The notes under the pieces are model-generated. The model saw nothing but the letters and a program-made list of their open reading frames with translations. It ran no database searches and was not told where the DNA came from. A stretch of DNA of 64,000 nucleotides from Parcubacteria group bacterium (GTDB lineage Bacteria > Patescibacteriota > Minisyncoccia > Moranbacterales > UBA2206), in the NCBI GenBank assembly GCA_041659505.1, contig JBAZYF010000002.1:51966-115965 (forward strand). The letters are read 5' to 3'. A program made the translations under genes and the position numbers. Positions 21,934-57,863 of the stretch are shown piece by piece (position 1 is the first letter of the stretch; every line of letters begins with the position of its first letter).

Positions 21934-21966
21934 ACTTTTTCCGCTACTCACAATAATTCATTCGTG

Positions 21967-22038
21967 AGCCGAAGATCGGAGTTGAACCGATAACCTACTG
22001 TTTACAAAACAGTTGCTCTGCCATTGAGCTACTTCGGC
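21967..22038 (-). tRNA. tRNA-Thr (anticodon TGT)
   Basis: acceptor GCCGAAG/CTTCGGC, D-arm GCTC-AATGGCA-GAGC, anticodon stem ACTGT/ACAGT with loop TTTGTAA, T-arm ATCGG-TTCAACT-CCGAT. Confidence 0.8.
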
Positions 22039-22063: not shown

Positions 22064-22132
22064 TAGCGCTACTATTTACAAAACAGTTGCTCCCTGCCTG
22101 CCGGCAGGCAGGTGCCACTCCGCTACTTCAGC
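22064..22132 (-). pseudogene. truncated duplicate of tRNA-Thr(TGT): 5' half only, 20-bp palindrome inserted in the D-loop
   Basis: GCTGAAGTAGC..GGAGTGGCA[CCTGCCTGCCGGCAGGCAGG]GAGCAACTGTTTTGTAAATAGTAG matches the first ~45 nt of the adjacent tRNA-Thr(TGT); no T-arm or 3' acceptor. Confidence 0.6.
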
Positions 22133-22171
22133 ATATCAAGCGCGAGTTAATTTCACGCTTTTTCTATTCTA

Positions 22172-25983: not shown

Positions 25984-26028
25984 AGCTGATTAGAAATAAA
26001 AGGTTCAATTCGGGAGAATTGAACCGAC
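25984..26028 (+). repeat. 45-bp repeat with 10-bp-stem hairpin (GGTTCAATTC-GGGAG-AATTGAACC), copy A
   Basis: AGCTGATTAGAAATAAAAGGTTCAATTCGGGAGAATTGAACCGAC; exact inverted copy at 57819-57863. Confidence 0.7.
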
Positions 26029-27096: not shown

Positions 27097-27267
27097 GTGT
27101 CATTCCCGCGAAGGCGGGAATCCAGGTTCCACGAGCTATGAACTCCAGAAAATCGAACTACAAGTCTAACAAATTCTCTATTTTAGCAAGTCTTGAGTTT
27201 TAATAATTCGTTTTTTCTTTATATTAAGTCTGAGGTGCCTGGATCCCCGCCTTCGCGAGGATGACAC
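27097..27267. mobile_element. MITE-like palindromic element copy 1 (~170 bp, 30-bp hairpin terminal inverted repeats)
   Basis: left GTGTCATTCCCGCGAAGGCGGGAATCCAGG, right CCTGGATCCCCGCCTTCGCGAGGATGACAC; internal ~110 bp homologous to copies 2 and 3. Confidence 0.7.
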
Positions 27268-32774: not shown

Positions 32775-34520
32775 ATGTCAACCGAACAAAAGAACGAAAA
32801 AATAGAAATATTGCGCCACTCGACTTCCCATGTCTTGGCGGCGGCGGTTTTGGAAATGTTTCCTGAGGCAAAATTTGCCATCGGTCCAGCCATCGAAAAT
32901 GGATTTTACTATGATTTCGATCTGCCAAGAACTCTTATTCCCGAAGATTTAGAAATTCTAGAAGAAAAGATGCGCGCCATCATCAAGGCCAATCATCCAT
33001 TTGAGCGAGCAGAAATTTCGATTGCGGAGGCAAGAGCGGATTTTGAAAAATTGGGGCAATTCTATAAAGTCGAATTGATCAATGACTTAGCCAAAGCGGG
33101 CAATGAAAATGTTTCGGTCTATAAGTCCGGCCCTTTCGTTGATCTTTGCTCGGGACCACACTTAGATTCCACCGGCGAAATTCCGGCCGACGGATTTAAA
33201 CTAACAAAAATTTCCGGCGCCTATTGGCGCGGGGATGAGAAAAATAAACAACTGCAACGGATATATGGCGTCGCCTTTTCCAATAAATCTGAATTGAAAG
33301 ATTATCTGCATATGATTGAAGAAGCGGAAAAAAGAAATCACGTCAAGCTCGGCAAAGAGTTAAGACTGTTTTCCACACATCCAGAAGGACCAGGTTTTCC
33401 ATTTATCCATCCCAAGGGCATGTTGATTTGGAATGAATTGATCGGATATTGGAAGGAAGAGCACACAAAAGAAGGTTACCAGGAGATAAGCACTCCAATC
33501 ATCTTGAACAAGGCTCTGTGGGAAAAAAGCGGACATTGGGATCACTACAAAGATAATATGTATTTTACCAAAATTGATGATGCTGATTATGCAGTAAAAC
33601 CGATGAACTGCCCGGGAGGAATTTTGGTCTATAAATCCGACCTGCACAGCTACAAAGAATTTCCCCTCAAACTGGCAGAAATCGGGCTGGTCCATCGCCA
33701 TGAACTTTCCGGAACTTTGAACGGCCTTTTCCGTGTGAGAATGTTTCGTCAGGATGACGCGCACATCTATTGTATGGAAAATCAGATCAAGGACGAGATT
33801 AAAAAGTTGATCGGCCTCATCGATAGGATCTATGGAACCTTTGGCCTTTCTTATCACATGGAACTCTCCACCCGTCCGGAAAACTCGACTGGCACCGATG
33901 AGATGTGGAAAACAGCGGAAAATTCCCTGAAAGAAGCGCTGGCGGAGATAAAAGCAGATTATAAATTAAATCCTGGCGATGGTGCTTTCTATGGACCAAA
34001 AATTGATTTTCACATCAAAGATGCCATCGGTCGCACCTGGCAATGCGGAACGATCCAGCTGGATTTTTCCATGCCGGAAAGATTCGAACTGACCTACATC
34101 GGAGAAGATGGAAAAGAACACCGTCCAGTCATGCTTCATCGAGTCATCTATGGCGCAGTCGAACGTTTTATGGGCATCCTCATCGAACACTATGCCGGCG
34201 CGTTCCCAACTTGGCTCTCTCCCGTCCAAGTTATGATCATCCCGATCTCTGAAAAATTCAATGACTATGCTAAATCTATCGGGACGCAATTCATTGCATC
34301 TAATGTCCGCGCCTCCATCGACGATTCTAACGAATCCCTCGGCAAACGCATCCGCCTGGCGGAAAAACAAAAAATCCCCTACATCTTGGTTGTAGGAGAA
34401 AAAGAAATGACCGACGGATCGGTTGCAGTTCGCAAACGTGGAGAAGAAAAGAAGCAGGAGATTTTGAAGGTTGACGAGTTTTTGGAGAATGTGAAAAAGG
34501 AAATTGAAGAAAAGAAATAA
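32775..34520 (+). CDS. thrS: threonine--tRNA ligase (lacks N-terminal TGS domain)
   Basis: second-site editing domain His motif (HSTSH), class II motifs (HRHELSGTLNGLFRVRMFRQDDAHIY), C-terminal anticodon-binding domain. Confidence 0.9.
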   Translation: MSTEQKNEKIEILRHSTSHVLAAAVLEMFPEAKFAIGPAIENGFYYDFDLPRTLIPEDLEILEEKMRAIIKANHPFERAEISIAEARADFEKLGQFYKVELINDLAKAGNENVSVYKSGPFVDLCSGPHLDSTGEIPADGFKLTKISGAYWRGDEKNKQLQRIYGVAFSNKSELKDYLHMIEEAEKRNHVKLGKELRLFSTHPEGPGFPFIHPKGMLIWNELIGYWKEEHTKEGYQEISTPIILNKALWEKSGHWDHYKDNMYFTKIDDADYAVKPMNCPGGILVYKSDLHSYKEFPLKLAEIGLVHRHELSGTLNGLFRVRMFRQDDAHIYCMENQIKDEIKKLIGLIDRIYGTFGLSYHMELSTRPENSTGTDEMWKTAENSLKEALAEIKADYKLNPGDGAFYGPKIDFHIKDAIGRTWQCGTIQLDFSMPERFELTYIGEDGKEHRPVMLHRVIYGAVERFMGILIEHYAGAFPTWLSPVQVMIIPISEKFNDYAKSIGTQFIASNVRASIDDSNESLGKRIRLAEKQKIPYILVVGEKEMTDGSVAVRKRGEEKKQEILKVDEFLENVKKEIEEKK

Positions 34521-35986
34521 TGCCACCAAAAACCTATTTTATCAAAACCTTCGGCTGTCAAATGAACATCTCGGATTCTGAAAGAATCGCCGGCCTCTTG
34601 GAAAGACCTCACCCCAACCCTCTCCTTAGTAAGGAGAGGGGGCTTAAATTAGCAAAAAATATTAACGAGGCAGATTTAGTTATTTTCAACACCTGCGGAA
34701 TCCGCCAAGCCGCGGAAAATAGAGCCTACAGCATTATTCATACCTTACGAAAATCACGACCAAAAATAAAAATTATTCTCACTGGCTGTCTCGCCAATCG
34801 CAAGGATGTTCAGGAAAGATTAAAAGATAAGGTTGATTTGTTTTGTGAAATTAAAGATTTTATAAAATTGGAAAATTGGATCATTAGAAATTGTTTAGAA
34901 ACCTTGCCTACCGGCAGGCAGGTTAGAAATTCGAAATTAGAAATTTTAGCACAAAAAGATGCTCTTCAGCGCGATAAAAATATAAACTATCTTTCCACTC
35001 TACCCAAGCATACCAACAAGCACCAAGCGCTTGTGCCGGTAATGACCGGCTGTAACAATTTCTGCTCCTATTGCGTCGTGCCATATGCTCGAGGACGAGA
35101 AGTTTCAAGGCCAGCTGAAGAAATAATCAACGAGATAAAAACTCTCATCAAAAACGGTTGCAGAGAAATAACGCTTTTGGGGCAGAATGTTAACTCATAC
35201 AATTACTCATCGCGCTCTAAATCCGAAGCCCTAGAAGCTAATGTGGTTTCTACACTAGATTCCCGCCTGCGCAGGAATGACAATAATACAATAACCTTTC
35301 CTAAACTGCTTCGAAAAATCGAAAAAATCCCCGGGCATTTTTGGATCCGGTTTATGTCGTCGCATCCGAAAGATTTTTCTGATGAACTCATTGAGACGAT
35401 TGCTAAATCAAAAAAGGTTTGCGAACACATTCATCTGCCGATCCAAGCTGGATCAGATAAGATTCTTGCTGCCATGAACCGCAAATATACCGCCCAACAC
35501 TATTTAGGTTTAATCAAAAAAATTCGCACTGCTTTCAAAAAGTTCAAACCCGATGCGCCCTATTCCATCACGTCAGATATTATTGTCGGTTTTCCTGGCG
35601 AAACCAAAAAAGATTTTCTCGAAACGGCAAGGATTATGGAAAAGGTAAAATACGACTTGGTCTATTTCGGCCAATTCTCTCCCCGCCCCGGCACAGTCGC
35701 TTGGAAATTGAAAGATAGTGTTTCAAAACAAGAAAAATCCCGCCGTGAAAAATATTTGAATGAAATTTTGGCTCGTACGACTTTTGCCAAGAATAAAAAA
35801 TATGTCGGTAAAATTTTGGAAGTTTTGGTAGACTCAGAAAAAAATGGATTTTATTTCGGACGCACTCGTTCAGGAAAAGATGTCAAAATAATCACCGACC
35901 AAAAAAACCTAACTGAGAAATTTGTAAAAGTTAAGATCACTAAGGCTAATATATGGAATCTAGAAGCTCGTTTGCTGGAAAAGTAG
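34520..35986 (+). CDS. miaB: tRNA methylthiotransferase MiaB with three in-frame palindromic-repeat insertions
   Basis: MTTase N-domain FGCQMN..DSE..NTCGIR, radical-SAM CNNFCSYC, C-terminal TRAM; inserts at 34618-34640, 34903-34922, 35256-35285. Confidence 0.8.
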   Translation: MPPKTYFIKTFGCQMNISDSERIAGLLERPHPNPLLSKERGLKLAKNINEADLVIFNTCGIRQAAENRAYSIIHTLRKSRPKIKIILTGCLANRKDVQERLKDKVDLFCEIKDFIKLENWIIRNCLETLPTGRQVRNSKLEILAQKDALQRDKNINYLSTLPKHTNKHQALVPVMTGCNNFCSYCVVPYARGREVSRPAEEIINEIKTLIKNGCREITLLGQNVNSYNYSSRSKSEALEANVVSTLDSRLRRNDNNTITFPKLLRKIEKIPGHFWIRFMSSHPKDFSDELIETIAKSKKVCEHIHLPIQAGSDKILAAMNRKYTAQHYLGLIKKIRTAFKKFKPDAPYSITSDIIVGFPGETKKDFLETARIMEKVKYDLVYFGQFSPRPGTVAWKLKDSVSKQEKSRREKYLNEILARTTFAKNKKYVGKILEVLVDSEKNGFYFGRTRSGKDVKIITDQKNLTEKFVKVKITKANIWNLEARLLEK

Positions 35987-37008
35987 GAAATAATAAAATA
36001 ATTGTCATTCTTGGCCCCACCTCCTCCGGAAAATCTTCCGTTGCGATTAAACTCGCCCAGAAATTTAATGGGGAAATCATTTCGGTAGACAGCCGACAGA
36101 TTTATCGTGGGATGGATATTGGAACGGGAAAAGTCACAAAAGCGGAGCAAGCACTCGCCAAGCATCATATGCTCGACGTTGTTGGTCCAAAAACTAATTT
36201 CAGCGCAGCGCAGTTCAAAAAATATGCAGAAAAAATAATTGCCGATATTTTGAAACGCGGAAAAGTTCCCATCCTCTGTGGCGGCACCGGTTTTTGGATC
36301 AAAGCTTTGGTCGATGATGTGATTTATCCTGAAGTAAAACCGGACTGGAAACTGCGAGAAGAATTAGGTAAAAAATCTGCAGAGCAACTTTTTGTGATGC
36401 TCAAAAAACTCGATCCGGTTCGCGCGAGAAATATTGATGCTAAAAATCCTGTCCGCCTAATCCGAGCGATTGAAATCTGCAAGACATTAGGCAAGGTACC
36501 ATTACCGATACGAAACAACGAAACAAATGCGAATCTGCGAACTAATTCACAAATTCGCAATTTCGTAGATTCGGATAAATTCGCCTGCCTGCCGGTAGGC
36601 AAGGCAGATTCGCATCGGTTTCATGATTTCCTGCAAATCGGAATTTCCTTGCCCAAGAAAAAACTGCACAAAAACATTGAAAAAAGACTGAAGCAAAGAT
36701 TCGGGGAAGGGATGATTGAAGAAGTGGAAAGATTGCACAGTGAGCAAAAAATCAGCTGGAAAAAAATGGAAAGTTTCGGCCTGGGTTATCTTTGGATTGC
36801 CAAATTCTTACAAAAACAACTCCCGAAAGAGGAGCTGTTTTCCAAAGTCTATTTTTCTGAAAAAGATTATGCTAAGCGCCAGATGACGTGGTTCGGGAAA
36901 GATGAGAGAATTATTTGGCTTGAGAAGTATAGTGAGATTGAAAAAAAAGTAGAAAAGTTTATACGTGTCATTCCCGCAAAGGCGGGAATCCAGGCACCTC
37001 AGGCTTAA
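35953..37008 (+). CDS. miaA: tRNA dimethylallyltransferase MiaA; in-frame palindrome insert; MITE-encoded C-terminus and stop
   Basis: P-loop GPTSSGKSS, ISVDSRQIYRGMDIGTGK; last 14 codons (RVIPAKAGIQAPQA) and stop lie inside the MITE left TIR. Confidence 0.8.
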   Translation: MESRSSFAGKVGNNKIIVILGPTSSGKSSVAIKLAQKFNGEIISVDSRQIYRGMDIGTGKVTKAEQALAKHHMLDVVGPKTNFSAAQFKKYAEKIIADILKRGKVPILCGGTGFWIKALVDDVIYPEVKPDWKLREELGKKSAEQLFVMLKKLDPVRARNIDAKNPVRLIRAIEICKTLGKVPLPIRNNETNANLRTNSQIRNFVDSDKFACLPVGKADSHRFHDFLQIGISLPKKKLHKNIEKRLKQRFGEGMIEEVERLHSEQKISWKKMESFGLGYLWIAKFLQKQLPKEELFSKVYFSEKDYAKRQMTWFGKDERIIWLEKYSEIEKKVEKFIRVIPAKAGIQAPQA

Positions 37009-37134
37009 TATAGGGAAAAACCAACTATTAAAATTCGAGACTTACTAAAATATAGAATTGATTGCACTTGTAATTCGAATTTCTAGATTCTATTACTGAA
37101 GGAACCTGGATTCCCGCCTTCGCGGGAATGACAC
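36965..37134. mobile_element. MITE-like palindromic element copy 2 (inverted relative to copy 1)
   Basis: TIRs GTGTCATTCCCGCAAAGGCGGGAATCCAGG / CCTGGATTCCCGCCTTCGCGGGAATGACAC; internal region ~80% identical to the reverse complement of copy 1. Confidence 0.7.
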
Positions 37135-44798: not shown

Positions 44799-44978
44799 GT
44801 GTCATTCCCGCGAAGGCGGGAATCCAGGCTCCACTAGTTATAAATTACGAACAATCAAATTATGAATCCTCTAACTTCCCTTTACTAACCAGTAAATTCT
44901 GTTTTTCTTTTGCTTGAAACCTGAGGTGTCTGGATCCCTGCCTTCGCGAGCCTGCCTGCCGGTAGGCAGGGATGACAC
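44799..44978. mobile_element. MITE-like palindromic element copy 3, with the 20-bp palindrome nested in its right TIR
   Basis: left TIR GTGTCATTCCCGCGAAGGCGGGAATCCAGG; right TIR CCTTCGCGAG[CCTGCCTGCCGGTAGGCAGG]GATGACAC split by the insert at 44951-44970. Confidence 0.7.
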
Positions 44979-57818: not shown

Positions 57819-57863
57819 GTCGGTTCAATTCTCCCGAATTGAACCTTTTATTTCTAATCAGCT
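57819..57863 (-). repeat. 45-bp hairpin repeat, copy B (inverted relative to copy A)
   Basis: minus strand reads AGCTGATTAGAAATAAAAGGTTCAATTCGGGAGAATTGAACCGAC, identical to 25984-26028. Confidence 0.7.

What the first reader, a model, noticed from the sequence alone, without database searches (positions are those of the whole stretch)
44941..44978. Nested insertion: 20-bp palindrome inserted inside the terminal inverted repeat of MITE copy 3
The right TIR of copy 3 reads CCTTCGCGAG-[CCTGCCTGCCGGTAGGCAGG]-GATGACAC. The other copies read CCTTCGCGAGGATGACAC uninterrupted. So the short palindrome family has inserted into a member of the MITE family. This is direct evidence that the 20-bp palindrome is itself mobile or propagated, and it gives a relative timing of the two families. 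The same palindrome also sits in the pseudo-tRNA D-loop (22093-22112), in miaB and in miaA.
Basis: seen in the sequence. Interest (0 to 1): 0.6.

Follow-up and report, generated by a model that had tools for sequence, protein, structure and literature searches.

The report
Tiny mobile palindrome nested in repeat
A 20-base palindrome has precisely inserted into another repeat, a dead tRNA copy and two essential genes of a Moranbacteria genome; the same 20 bases occur across many bacterial phyla and phage contigs, usually as lone copies but regularly beside a tiny GIY-YIG nuclease gene lodged in duplicated tRNA genes.

Summary
At 44951-44970, CCTGCCTGCCGGTAGGCAGG ("P") interrupts the right terminal hairpin of repeat copy 3. 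At least nine other terminal hairpins of that family in the same genome are uninterrupted, including its closest variant in copy 1. P is therefore the later insertion.

Two more sites have empty-site comparators:
- an exact 20-nt insertion in a 5' pseudo-copy of tRNA-Thr(UGU);
- an exact 21-nt, in-frame insertion in miaB.

None has a target-site duplication. The miaA copy is the same 21-nt form, also in frame.

P is not lineage-specific. Exact copies occur in at least 120 species genomes from many phyla, cultured Bacteroidota included, and in 53 viral-contig stretches. The 21-nt form is enriched inside ORFs.

P has a gene partner. Of 80 metagenomic loci encoding a small GIY-YIG nuclease clade, 60 carry P within about 200 nt. 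It typically splits a partial duplicate of the adjacent tRNA gene.

The "MITE" ends match the Neisseria NTS/dRS3 hairpin, the known target of Ssn GIY-YIG single-strand nucleases.

Best reading: P is the hairpin companion of a tRNA-associated GIY-YIG cassette, and the window holds only lone copies. The transfer mechanism is inferred. No paper describing P was found.

The parts
44951..44970 (+). Palindrome P, 20 nt, T variant (CCTGCCTGCCGGTAGGCAGG), inserted in the right terminal hairpin of repeat copy 3
   Evidence: folds as an 8-bp stem with a 4-nt loop, -7 kcal/mol as DNA
44929..44978 (+). Right terminal hairpin (NTS/SRM-like) of copy 3, interrupted by P between GCGAG and GATGACAC
44799..44978 (.). 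Repeat copy 3, a REPIN-like doublet of two inverted NTS-like hairpins; 180 bp including P
27097..27267 (.). Repeat copy 1, uninterrupted. Its right hairpin GCGAGGATGACAC is the closest relative of copy 3's.
36965..37134 (.). Repeat copy 2, uninterrupted. Its left hairpin encodes the last 13 residues of MiaA.
22093..22112 (.). Palindrome P, perfect 20-nt form, inserted between GGCA and GAGC (D-loop / 3' D-stem junction) of a tRNA pseudo-fragment
22069..22133 (-). 5' pseudo-copy of tRNA-Thr(UGU), roughly positions 1-46, split by P; it lies 30 nt upstream of the intact gene
   Evidence: The same layout occurs in other phyla, with or without a GIY-YIG gene in between.
21966..22038 (-). Intact tRNA-Thr(UGU), the paralogue that serves as the empty-site comparator
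34902..34922 (-). Palindrome P, 21-nt isoform (CCTGCCTGCCGGTAGGCAAGG on the minus strand), in frame in miaB (residues TLPTGRQ), inside tandem TTAGAAA-like repeats
36584..36604 (+). Palindrome P, 21-nt isoform, in frame in miaA (residues ACLPVGK), inside an AATTCG-rich insert of about 25 residues that the MiaA of L121 and L122 lack
11518..11796 (-). The only small single-domain GIY-YIG gene in the window (92 aa, UPF0213/YhbQ-like). It is not the P-linked clade and is not next to P. It is a candidate trans-acting nuclease only.
   Evidence: orthologue in relative L264
31030..31064 (+). Lone NTS-like hairpin, uninterrupted
35249..35283 (+). Lone NTS-like hairpin inside the miaB coding sequence (residues STLDSRLRRNDN), uninterrupted

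Best explanation
P (CCTGCCTGCCGGCAGGCAGG, with a C-to-T variant and a 21-nt +A isoform) is a discrete, very small mobile DNA hairpin. It is copied into new sites exactly, with no target-site duplication and no loss of target bases.

In this Moranbacteria genome it entered four places:
- the right NTS-like hairpin of repeat copy 3, after that repeat had been laid down;
- a disabled 5' copy of tRNA-Thr(UGU);
- miaB and miaA, where only the 21-nt isoform is seen, because it keeps the frame.

P is not autonomous. Across bacteria it is the constant companion of an ~80-aa single-domain GIY-YIG nuclease gene with a C-terminal REKYLKSGxGRE motif. That gene sits between an intact tRNA gene and a partial direct duplicate of the same tRNA, and P splits the duplicate.

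The four window copies are lone descendants of such a cassette. Site 22093 looks like a cassette scar that has lost the nuclease gene.

What is shown: exact insertions; the order of events relative to the host repeat; the distribution across phyla and in viral contigs; enrichment of the 21-nt isoform in ORFs; and the P / GIY-YIG / tRNA architecture.

What is inferred, by analogy with the NTS-Ssn system: the GIY-YIG enzyme recognises the P hairpin or tRNA-like single-stranded DNA, nicks at the hairpin border (after an unpaired A), and host repair or replication then copies P into the nicked site. This could act in cis for the cassette and in trans for lone copies.
For: Exact insertions against empty sites:
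- repeat hairpin, 20 nt;
- tRNA paralogue, 20 nt;
- miaB against L122, 21 nt.

Family size in the window: four copies, all within 2 substitutions (plus one added base in the two 21-nt copies) of the perfect palindrome, and none expected by chance.

Flanks differ at every site.

Frame selection: the 21-nt isoform lies in ORFs at 8 of 11 sites (5 by the script's 40-codon rule, 3 more by inspection near ORF ends), against 13 of 104 for the 20-nt form.

Gene association, starting from P: 5 of 173 P-centred loci carry the GIY-YIG clade next to P, plus one weak hit.

Gene association, starting from the gene:
- 51 of 80 loci have P (up to 2 mismatches) within 200 nt upstream, and 40 of these are exact;
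- 13 of 80 have it within 120 nt downstream;
- only 5 P copies lie in the other 150 kb of those loci;
- 55 of 80 have a same-strand tRNA within 200 nt after the gene, usually 0-25 nt;
- in 36 loci the flanks of P are contiguous positions of that tRNA (37 of 41 junctions exact), and A precedes P in 40 of 41;
- the direct repeat of the tRNA 5' part has a median of 26 + 15 nt.

The linked proteins are Pfam GIY-YIG, with E-values from 1e-14 to 1e-17.

Loci without canonical P carry P-like hairpins at the same tRNA position.

A relative, L264, has three P copies at different positions in the same tRNA cluster, so turnover in this lineage is ongoing.

Precedent: small GIY-YIG Ssn nucleases bind hairpin repeats in single-stranded DNA and cut beside them (PMC11893778).
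Against: - No nuclease of the P-linked clade lies in the window or in the roughly 8 kb of extra source-genome DNA examined. The only GIY-YIG gene there is of the UPF0213 type and is not next to P.
- GIY-YIG enzymes cut DNA but do not transfer strands, so the copying step has no demonstrated chemistry.
- In the cassette model, the intact tRNA copy keeps an unprotected target site.
- Reconstructed empty sites of lone P copies are no more hairpin-prone than control windows (MFE -6.13 against -5.97, p = 0.56). A simple 'targets hairpins' rule is therefore not supported.
- Most P copies (about 90%) are not in tRNA-derived DNA.
- The 80 gene-centred loci come from metagenomes without taxonomy and are not all independent; some are near-duplicates.
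Confidence: 0.6

Rival explanations
1. P is a REP-type element moved by a RAYT or IS200/IS605-type Y1 (HUH) transposase acting on single-stranded hairpins. The GIY-YIG cassette merely carries a copy of it.
For: P is a short hairpin that inserts exactly, without a target-site duplication, as IS200/IS605-type elements do. The T variant creates a GTAG tetranucleotide. RAYT subclasses are common in Bacteroidetes, cyanobacteria and Planctomycetes, and REP insertions inside genes are described (PMC6006769).
Against: All-against-all clustering of ORFs from 120 P-centred loci found no recurrent neighbour other than the GIY-YIG ORFs. P lies next to the GIY-YIG gene in 60 of 80 gene-centred loci. P is a perfect, unoriented palindrome with no conserved 5' GTAG tag in its main form. 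REP families are normally lineage-specific rather than identical across phyla. No Y1 transposase profile was actually run.
Confidence: 0.12
2. P does not move on its own. It spreads passively by homologous recombination or gene conversion between larger repeats that already contain it, such as heptamer-repeat tracts, larger repeat families and tRNA fragments.
For: P flanks share direct 6-mers far more often than chance (44 of 122 against 17.4). The miaB and miaA copies lie in short tandem-repeat tracts. In viral contig L155/L164/L166, P is part of longer repeated units. Tandem [P-GIY] units and a 21-nt tandem array exist.
Against: The four window sites have unrelated flanks. The inserts in the repeat hairpin and the tRNA are exactly 20 nt, with no co-converted flanking bases. 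Thirty-seven of 41 tRNA junctions are exactly contiguous. Nested P-in-P always has the same junction.
Confidence: 0.1
3. The interrupted hairpin is ancestral and the other copies lost 20 nt; or P arose locally by template switching; or it is an assembly or adapter artefact.
For: In copy 3 the left arm ATCCCTGCCT pairs perfectly with the right half of P plus its flank, AGGCAGGGAT. Some local complementarity therefore exists.
Against: At least nine uninterrupted hairpins stand against one interrupted one. The identical 20-mer occurs at unrelated sites and in unrelated phyla. The region was assembled identically in an independent Logan assembly and in other samples. Both gene copies are in frame, and P is present in cultured-isolate genomes.
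Confidence: 0.02
4. P is kept mainly for a host or cassette function rather than being selfish. It could be a 5' stabilising or insulating hairpin for the GIY-YIG mRNA made from the tRNA promoter, or a plug that makes the spare tRNA copy uncuttable. Lone copies would then be by-products.
For: P sits a median of 25 nt upstream of the GIY-YIG coding match. The gene has the same orientation as the tRNA and lies inside its transcription unit. P always lies in the non-functional tRNA copy.
Against: This does not explain exact insertions into miaB, miaA, a repeat hairpin, other hairpins or P itself. It is compatible with, and not exclusive of, the main explanation.
Confidence: 0.15

Closest known systems
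NTS/dRS3 (Ssn-related motif) hairpins with SsnA, a small single-domain GIY-YIG single-strand DNA nuclease (Nat Commun 2025, PMC11893778)
   Same: Both pair a short GC-rich hairpin repeat, dispersed in many copies, with a nuclease gene of about 80-95 aa that is a single GIY-YIG domain and has the hairpin beside it. Both are widespread across phyla. The host repeat in this window carries that very motif: TGTCATTCCCGCGAAGGCGGGAATCCAG matches the NTS consensus CGTCATTCCCGCGMAVGCGGGAATCYRG at 27 of 28 positions.
   Different: P is a perfect, unoriented 20-nt palindrome that does not fit the SRM pattern. Its nuclease clade has a distinct REKYLKSGxGRE tail, and membership of cd10448 was not tested. 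Its gene sits in duplicated tRNA genes, with P on one side only. P also inserts in frame into genes, whereas only 2% of NTS copies lie in genes. Ssn is described as limiting transformation, not as mobilising NTS.
REP/REPIN elements with RAYT (Y1 HUH) transposases
   Same: Hairpins of 20-40 nt dispersed through a genome, thought to be moved in trans by a single-copy enzyme that acts on single-stranded DNA. No target-site duplication. They also nest into one another.
   Different: No Y1 gene was found associated with P. P lacks the 5' GTAG/GTGG tag in its main form. REP families are species-specific, whereas P is identical across phyla. REPs are extragenic, whereas P also lies in coding sequence.
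Small dispersed repeats (SDR, 21-27 nt) of Nostocaceae (Elhai et al. 2008, Genome Res 18:1484). The paper is not held; this entry rests on my own recollection and on citing papers.
   Same: Very small hairpin-forming repeats (about 20-27 nt) inferred to be mobile from exact presence/absence. From memory, they are often embedded in tandem heptamer repeats or other repeats. Their mechanism is unknown.
   Different: A citing paper reports SDRs only in Nostocaceae. P is found across many phyla and has a candidate protein partner.
Rickettsia palindromic elements (own knowledge: Ogata et al. 2000)
   Same: Palindromic repeats that insert in frame into essential protein genes and into RNA genes, leaving the products functional.
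   Different: RPEs are 100-150 bp and restricted to one lineage. P is 20-21 nt and found in many phyla.
Free-standing GIY-YIG homing endonuclease genes, e.g. T4 SegB in the phage tRNA gene cluster (own knowledge; PMC13096335 describes SegB as a homing endonuclease)
   Same: A selfish GIY-YIG gene lodged among or next to tRNA genes that spreads through nuclease-induced breaks and repair from the occupied allele.
   Different: Seg enzymes are about 200-250 aa and have a separate DNA-binding domain. They have no companion palindrome, no tRNA partial duplication, and they occur only in phages.

Membership tests
MITE (classical, IS-derived) | Terminal inverted repeats | tested here: met
   The host repeat has terminal inverted repeats of about 30-37 nt. 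P itself is one palindrome with no internal sequence.
MITE (classical, IS-derived) | Target-site duplication flanking each copy | tested here: not met
   No direct repeat flanks the three host-repeat copies. No duplication of 3 nt or more flanks P in 122 sites, apart from 2 chance-level cases.
MITE (classical, IS-derived) | A parent insertion sequence with the same ends | not tested
   No transposase was recognised among the window ORFs submitted to Pfam, but most ORFs were not scanned and the rest of the genome was not available.
NTS/SRM-Ssn system (applied to the host repeat's ends) | Hairpin matching the NTS consensus CGTCATTCCCGCGMAVGCGGGAATCYRG | tested here: met
   27 of 28 positions match in the commonest window hairpin.
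NTS/SRM-Ssn system (applied to the host repeat's ends) | A cd10448 ssnA gene flanked by the motif | tested here: inconclusive
   The only GIY-YIG gene in the window is UPF0213-like and has no flanking hairpins. The rest of the genome was not seen.
Ssn-like hairpin/nuclease pair (applied to P) | Hairpin repeat spatially linked to a small single-domain GIY-YIG gene across distant genomes | tested here: met
   60 of 80 gene-centred loci have P within about 200 nt. P density next to the gene is about 75 times that in the rest of those loci.
Ssn-like hairpin/nuclease pair (applied to P) | The protein belongs to CDD family cd10448 | not testable with these tools
   Only Pfam GIY-YIG could be assigned. 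There was no NCBIfam hit, and the nearest solved structures are UPF0213 proteins at E = 6e-4.
Ssn-like hairpin/nuclease pair (applied to P) | The hairpin fits the SRM pattern HGTCWY... | tested here: not met
   P has no GTC(A/T)(C/T) head and no orientation.
Ssn-like hairpin/nuclease pair (applied to P) | The enzyme cuts single-stranded DNA beside the hairpin | not testable with these tools
   This needs biochemistry.
REP/RAYT | A Y1 transposase gene flanked by the repeat | tested here: not met
   ORF clustering of the 120 genome-derived P-centred loci found no recurrent family other than GIY-YIG. This was not a whole-genome test, and no Y1 profile was run.
REP/RAYT | A conserved 5' GT[AG]G tetranucleotide at the foot of the hairpin | tested here: not met
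   The main form has none. Only the T variant creates an internal GTAG.
Small dispersed repeats (Elhai 2008) | A dispersed repeat of about 21-27 nt with exact presence/absence at otherwise matching sites | tested here: met
Small dispersed repeats (Elhai 2008) | Sequence identity to a described SDR family | not testable with these tools
   The paper is not held. No paper in the library contains the P sequence.
Homing endonuclease cassette | Occupied and empty alleles of the same site in related genomes, with the nuclease cutting the empty allele | not tested
   Only occupied cassettes and a gene-less scar were seen. No empty/occupied pair was recovered.

The most novel reading that the evidence does not exclude
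P together with its ~80-aa GIY-YIG gene is a previously undescribed minimal selfish element of about 330 bp. It colonises tRNA genes across most bacterial phyla and some phages by nuclease-triggered repair, and it keeps the tRNA alive by carrying or creating a partial duplicate. It sheds a 20/21-nt hairpin that the same nuclease copies into unrelated sites, including essential genes, where the 21-nt isoform is kept in frame. This would be the first case in which the enzyme behind a roughly 20-nt 'very small mobile repeat' can be named, and the first GIY-YIG-driven cut-and-copy system for a DNA hairpin.
Probability: 0.35. Interest if true: 0.9.

Novelty: new variant of a known kind. Interest (0 to 1): 0.8.

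Why it matters
How repeats too small to encode anything, such as REP, SDR, NTS and GC clusters, get copied has been open for decades. P offers three handles on that question.
- It is exactly delimited, with dozens of clean empty-site comparisons.
- It is a single sequence shared across phyla, and it occurs in cultured Bacteroidota that can be grown.
- It has a specific small candidate nuclease that could be tested in vitro in days.

It also matters for annotation:
- P and the other hairpins add 7-residue or longer inserts to core enzymes such as MiaB and MiaA;
- they create pseudo-tRNAs;
- they generate spurious ORFs containing LPAGRQ or PACRQAG;
- they can seed mis-assemblies.

If the nuclease proves to be a sequence- or structure-specific single-strand DNA cutter, it would extend the Ssn toolbox.

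Tried and rejected
- Hairpin targeting. I rebuilt 161 empty sites and compared their DNA folding energy, and the number of pairs spanning the junction, with 4 control windows per site. There was no difference. The nested-in-hairpin cases are real but are not a general rule.
- Target-site duplication. None was found.
- Extension of the palindrome into the flanks. There was no general complementarity at offsets 1-15. A..T and G..G / C..C flanks are each over-represented.
- Decayed copies in the window. None was found at up to 3 mismatches. My own fuzzy regex run missed known sites and was discarded.
- Another recurrent neighbouring gene. None was found.
- Defence-system and NCBIfam assignment of the nuclease. 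No hits.
- tRNA-likeness of lone-copy sites, using an ad hoc nhmmer profile. It had low sensitivity: 3 of 160 sites against 2 of 800 controls. It is only weak support.
- Literature. No paper contains the P sequence, its peptides or the hairpin peptides. Searches combining GIY-YIG, tRNA, homing and CPR terms found nothing on this cassette. Elhai 2008 could not be read. No supplements of the Ssn paper are held.
- An orthologous empty site for repeat copy 3. Relatives carry different repeats in that intergenic region, so polarity rests on within-family comparison.
- Walking the source contig. Look-ups with two edge ORFs failed, probably because the start codons differ from the called genes. Two other look-ups added only about 8 kb.
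- Rfam. Only the five tRNAs were found.
Full report
**1. The observation**

Window 44941-44978 reads CCTTCGCGAG / CCTGCCTGCCGGTAGGCAGG / GATGACAC. I call the 20-mer P.

With up to 3 mismatches, P occurs four times in the 64 kb: at 22093, 34903, 36584 and 44951. None was found in 100 dinucleotide-preserving shuffles.

The uninterrupted motif CCTTCGCGAGGATGACAC and its variants occur at 27097, 27250, 31047, 36965, 37117 and 44799.

Three roughly 170-bp elements (27097-27267, 36965-37134, 44799-44978) share inverted ends of about 30-37 nt. They align throughout, and the only length difference in an end is the 20-nt block in copy 3.

**2. Polarity and timing**

Copy 1's right end (CCCCGCCTTCGCGAG|GATGACAC) shares with copy 3's right end the GAT..GAG variant that sets both apart from the canonical GCGGGAAT. 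It is uninterrupted.

Counting hairpins just outside the window, the source genome has at least nine uninterrupted ends against one interrupted end. Relatives carry only uninterrupted ends.

The interrupted form is therefore derived. P entered after copy 3 was in place and after its end had diverged from the consensus.

There is no orthologous empty site, because relatives have other repeats in that intergenic region.

**3. The other three sites**

The organism is a Candidatus Moranbacteria (CPR/Patescibacteria) bacterium, judged from MiaB homologues. The source is a 247.5-kb contig of ENA ERZ27247358.

- *miaB (34520-35986).* The protein alignment shows seven extra residues (TLPTGRQ) relative to P0003 and P0016. 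The DNA alignment with L122 shows an exact 21-bp insert, CCTTGCCTACCGGCAGGCAGG, between near-identical flanks ...TTGTTTAGAAA|TTAGAAATT.... The site lies in a tract of TTAGAAA-like tandem repeats that many homologues lack altogether, so this is a second nested insertion.
- *miaA (35953-37008).* The same 21-nt isoform, CCTGCCTGCCGGTAGGCAAGG, lies in frame (residues ACLPVGK) within an AATTCG-rich insert of about 25 residues that the MiaA of L121 and L122 lack.
- *Site 22093.* P splits a 46-nt 5' pseudo-copy of tRNA-Thr(UGU) exactly between GGCA and GAGC, at the junction of the D-loop and the 3' D-stem. The pseudo-copy lies 30 nt upstream of the intact gene at 21966-22038.

All three empty-site comparisons (the copy 3 hairpin, the tRNA pseudo-copy and miaB) show clean insertions with no target-site duplication. 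An independent Logan assembly and two other samples give the same sequences.

**4. P is not lineage-specific**

About 2-4 would be expected for a random 20-mer with four allowed variants in 596 Gb; this is my own arithmetic.

The hits come from:
- Patescibacteria of several classes;
- Bacteroidota, including the cultured Winogradskyella echinorum, Olivibacter oleidegradans, Flagellimonas yonaguniensis and Terrimonas;
- Omnitrophota, Planctomycetota, Ignavibacteria, Nitrospirota and Chloroflexi;
- Gamma- and Deltaproteobacteria and Bdellovibrionales.

Locus GC content ranges from 26% to 72%. Fifty-three stretches of IMG/VR viral contigs also carry P.

Flanks differ everywhere. What they show:
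- no target-site duplication;
- a purine before P in about 75% of sites, and G or T after it in about 74%;
- over-representation of A..T and of G..G / C..C flanks;
- shared direct 6-mers on the two sides at 44 of 122 sites, against 17 expected, meaning P often sits in short tandem repeats.

P is found nested in other GC-rich hairpin families and in itself. The P-in-P junction is always the same, CCTGCCTGCCG|P|G(C/T)AGGCAGG.

The 21-nt isoform (..GGCAAGG) occurs in several phyla. It lies in ORFs at 8 of 11 sites, against 13 of 104 for the 20-nt form. That pattern is what selection for frame preservation predicts.

**5. The host repeat is a known kind**

Its ends, TGTCATTCCCGCGAAGGCGGGAATCCAG, match 27 of 28 positions of the Neisseria Transformation Sequence consensus CGTCATTCCCGCGMAVGCGGGAATCYRG, which contains dRS3.

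In Neisseria and other bacteria that hairpin is bound in single-stranded DNA by SsnA, a 94-aa single-domain GIY-YIG nuclease, which cuts beside it. Ssn genes are usually flanked by such hairpins (PMC11893778).

Bertels and Rainey treat the same Neisseria sequence as a REPIN mobilised by a group-2 RAYT.

With two inverted hairpins about 110 bp apart and no target-site duplication, the window's 'MITE' is best described as a REPIN-like doublet of NTS-type hairpins.

**6. P has a gene partner**

The window encodes one small GIY-YIG protein (11518-11796, 92 aa; Pfam E = 6.5e-17). It is UPF0213/YhbQ-like, with E = 1e-17 to PDB 1ywl.

Using it as a probe against ORFs of all P-centred loci revealed GIY-YIG ORFs directly beside P in L058, L171, L029, L101 and L097. 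These five share a C-terminal REKYLKSGxGRE motif that the window protein lacks.

In four of the five, the layout is: 5' fragment of a tRNA, split by P / GIY-YIG gene / intact copy of the same tRNA.

The same layout without the gene occurs in the window and in L003, L006, L024 and L049.

In L097 the unit P + GIY-YIG domain is inserted in frame into a type I restriction specificity gene.

Eighteen of 191 P sites lie within 600 bp of a tRNA gene, and 12 of these are upstream of it.

**7. The test from the gene side**

Eighty loci were kept, at 40-57% identity to the query apart from the query's own locus. Counts are:
- 51 of 80 have P (up to 2 mismatches; 40 exact) within 200 nt upstream, a median of 25 nt from the coding match;
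- 13 of 80 have it within 120 nt downstream;
- only 5 P copies lie in the remaining 150 kb;
- 55 of 80 have a same-strand tRNA within 200 nt after the gene, typically 0-25 nt, and at least 45 have both P and the tRNA;
- about nine show the mirror form: tRNA, then the gene, then a 3' tRNA fragment split by P.

The tRNAs involved are Leu (five anticodons), Arg (five), Lys, Phe, Asn, Val, Met, Gly and Ser.

In 36 loci the two flanks of P are contiguous positions of the adjacent tRNA. Thirty-seven of 41 junctions are exact, so these are exact 20-nt insertions. They fall at tRNA positions 9, 14-15, 20-24 or 32, and A precedes P in 40 of 41.

The cassette is bracketed by a direct repeat of the tRNA 5' part, with a median of 26 nt to the left and 15 nt to the right of the P junction.

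Tandem [P-gene] units occur in several loci.

Loci without canonical P carry P-like hairpins at the same tRNA position. Examples are CCCGCCCG...CGGGCGGG arms, or P arms with extra sequence nested at the centre. This looks like co-variation of hairpin and nuclease.

**8. Turnover in this lineage**

The relative L264 (GCA_026396175.1; its neighbouring TPR protein is 77% identical) has the same tRNA cluster of Thr, Tyr, Thr and Trp. It carries three P copies at other positions, each in a dead tRNA fragment:
- the T-loop of a 3' fragment of tRNA-Thr(UGU);
- the D-loop of a 5' fragment of tRNA-Tyr;
- a fragment lying after tRNA-Thr(GGU).

Its resident tRNA-Thr and tRNA-Tyr genes have been split by cassettes flanked by inverted repeats and carrying a replacement tRNA.

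Its GIY-YIG gene is the UPF0213-type orthologue of the window's gene.

**9. How it most likely works**

*Shown:*
- P is a discrete 20/21-nt unit that appears exactly at new sites.
- It postdates the host repeat.
- It is identical across phyla and in phage contigs.
- It is tightly linked to one clade of tiny GIY-YIG genes in duplicated tRNA genes.
- Lone copies greatly outnumber cassette copies: about 3% of sampled P copies have the gene.

*Inferred:*
- By analogy with NTS-Ssn, the nuclease recognises the P hairpin and/or tRNA-like single-stranded DNA, and nicks at the hairpin border after an unpaired A.
- Repair or replication from a P-bearing template then copies P, or P together with the gene and the tRNA piece, into the nicked site.
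- Within the cassette, P disables the spare tRNA copy. It may also form a 5' hairpin for an mRNA driven by the tRNA promoter.
- Site 22093 would be a cassette scar.
- Sites 34902, 36584 and 44951, which all carry the T variant, would be secondary lone insertions.

*Weak points:*
- There is no demonstrated strand-transfer chemistry.
- No nuclease of the P-linked clade was seen in the roughly 72 kb of source genome examined.
- Lone-copy sites show no general preference for hairpins.

**10. Known or new**

No paper in the searchable library contains P, its translated peptides, or a description of a cassette combining a GIY-YIG gene, a palindrome and a tRNA.

The closest precedents are NTS-Ssn, REP/REPIN-RAYT, the cyanobacterial small dispersed repeats, Rickettsia palindromic elements, and free-standing GIY-YIG homing genes such as T4 segB.

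I rate P as a new variant of a known kind, namely a hairpin repeat paired with a dedicated small nuclease. Its unusual features are:
- a length of 20 nt;
- identity across phyla;
- an in-frame isoform;
- residence in tRNA genes.

Noticed in passing
window 36965-37008 (the end of miaA) and L122 12458-12487: The last 13 residues of MiaA (VIPAKAGIQAPQA) and its stop codon are supplied by the left NTS-like hairpin of repeat copy 2. The MiaA of L122 ends the same way (VIPAEAGIQAPQ...), while that of L121 does not. This repeat insertion therefore predates the split between the window genome and L122.
   Followed up: partly
window 35249-35283 (inside miaB): A lone NTS-like hairpin lies in frame in miaB (residues STLDSRLRRNDN). 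Homologues P0002 and P0004 have the same insert (TLDSRLRGNDK), and most others lack it.
   Followed up: partly
window 34606-34645 (inside miaB): A third hairpin family (CCCTCTCCTTAGTAAGGAGAGGG) gives the in-frame insert PHPNPLLSKERG in MiaB. It is also present in P0006 and P0007 and absent from other homologues. The same family lies next to P in loci from other phyla (L020, L107, L136, L153, L154).
   Followed up: partly
window 26002-26025 and 57822-57845: GGTTCAATTCGGGAGAATTGAACC and its reverse complement form a fourth short palindrome family with two copies.
   Followed up: no
window 44929-44978: After the insertion, the left arm ATCCCTGCCT pairs perfectly (10 bp) with the right half of P plus its flank, AGGCAGGGAT. 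Copy 1 has C where copy 3 has T in that arm. This may be a compensatory change that lengthens the new hairpin, or it may be coincidence.
   Followed up: partly
window 11518-11796 (-) and L264 5773-6015: A UPF0213/YhbQ-like single-domain GIY-YIG gene is conserved between the window genome and a 77%-identity relative. It is not flanked by hairpins, and its role is unknown.
   Followed up: partly
L264 3860-4470: The resident tRNA-Thr(UGU) and tRNA-Tyr genes are each split by a cassette that carries a replacement copy of the same tRNA. The cassettes are bounded by 18-19-nt inverted repeats (CCCCGCACTAATTTAAAAA / TTTTTAAATTAGTGCGGGG and CCCTCACCAATTTCGAAC / GTTCGAAATTGGTGAGGG). This looks like a separate kind of tRNA-replacing mobile element.
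   Followed up: no
L097 2751-4892: A type I restriction-modification specificity (HsdS-like) ORF has P plus a complete GIY-YIG domain inserted in frame between its two target-recognition halves.
   Followed up: no
L159 2239-2330 (IMG/VR contig): A viral tRNA-Met(CAU) carries P where the variable region meets the T-arm, and ARAGORN still calls it as a 92-nt tRNA. P could mimic a long variable arm.
   Followed up: no
L174 3916-4105 (IMG/VR contig): A tandem array of at least ten 21-nt units, CATGCCTACCGGCAGGCAGGC, which is a P-derived minisatellite.
   Followed up: no
window 34860-34960 and 36520-36620: Short tandem repeats of about 7-8 nt (TTAGAAA..., AATTCG...) lie inside the coding sequences of miaB and miaA and host the P copies. 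Similar low-complexity repeats flank P in many other phyla.
   Followed up: partly
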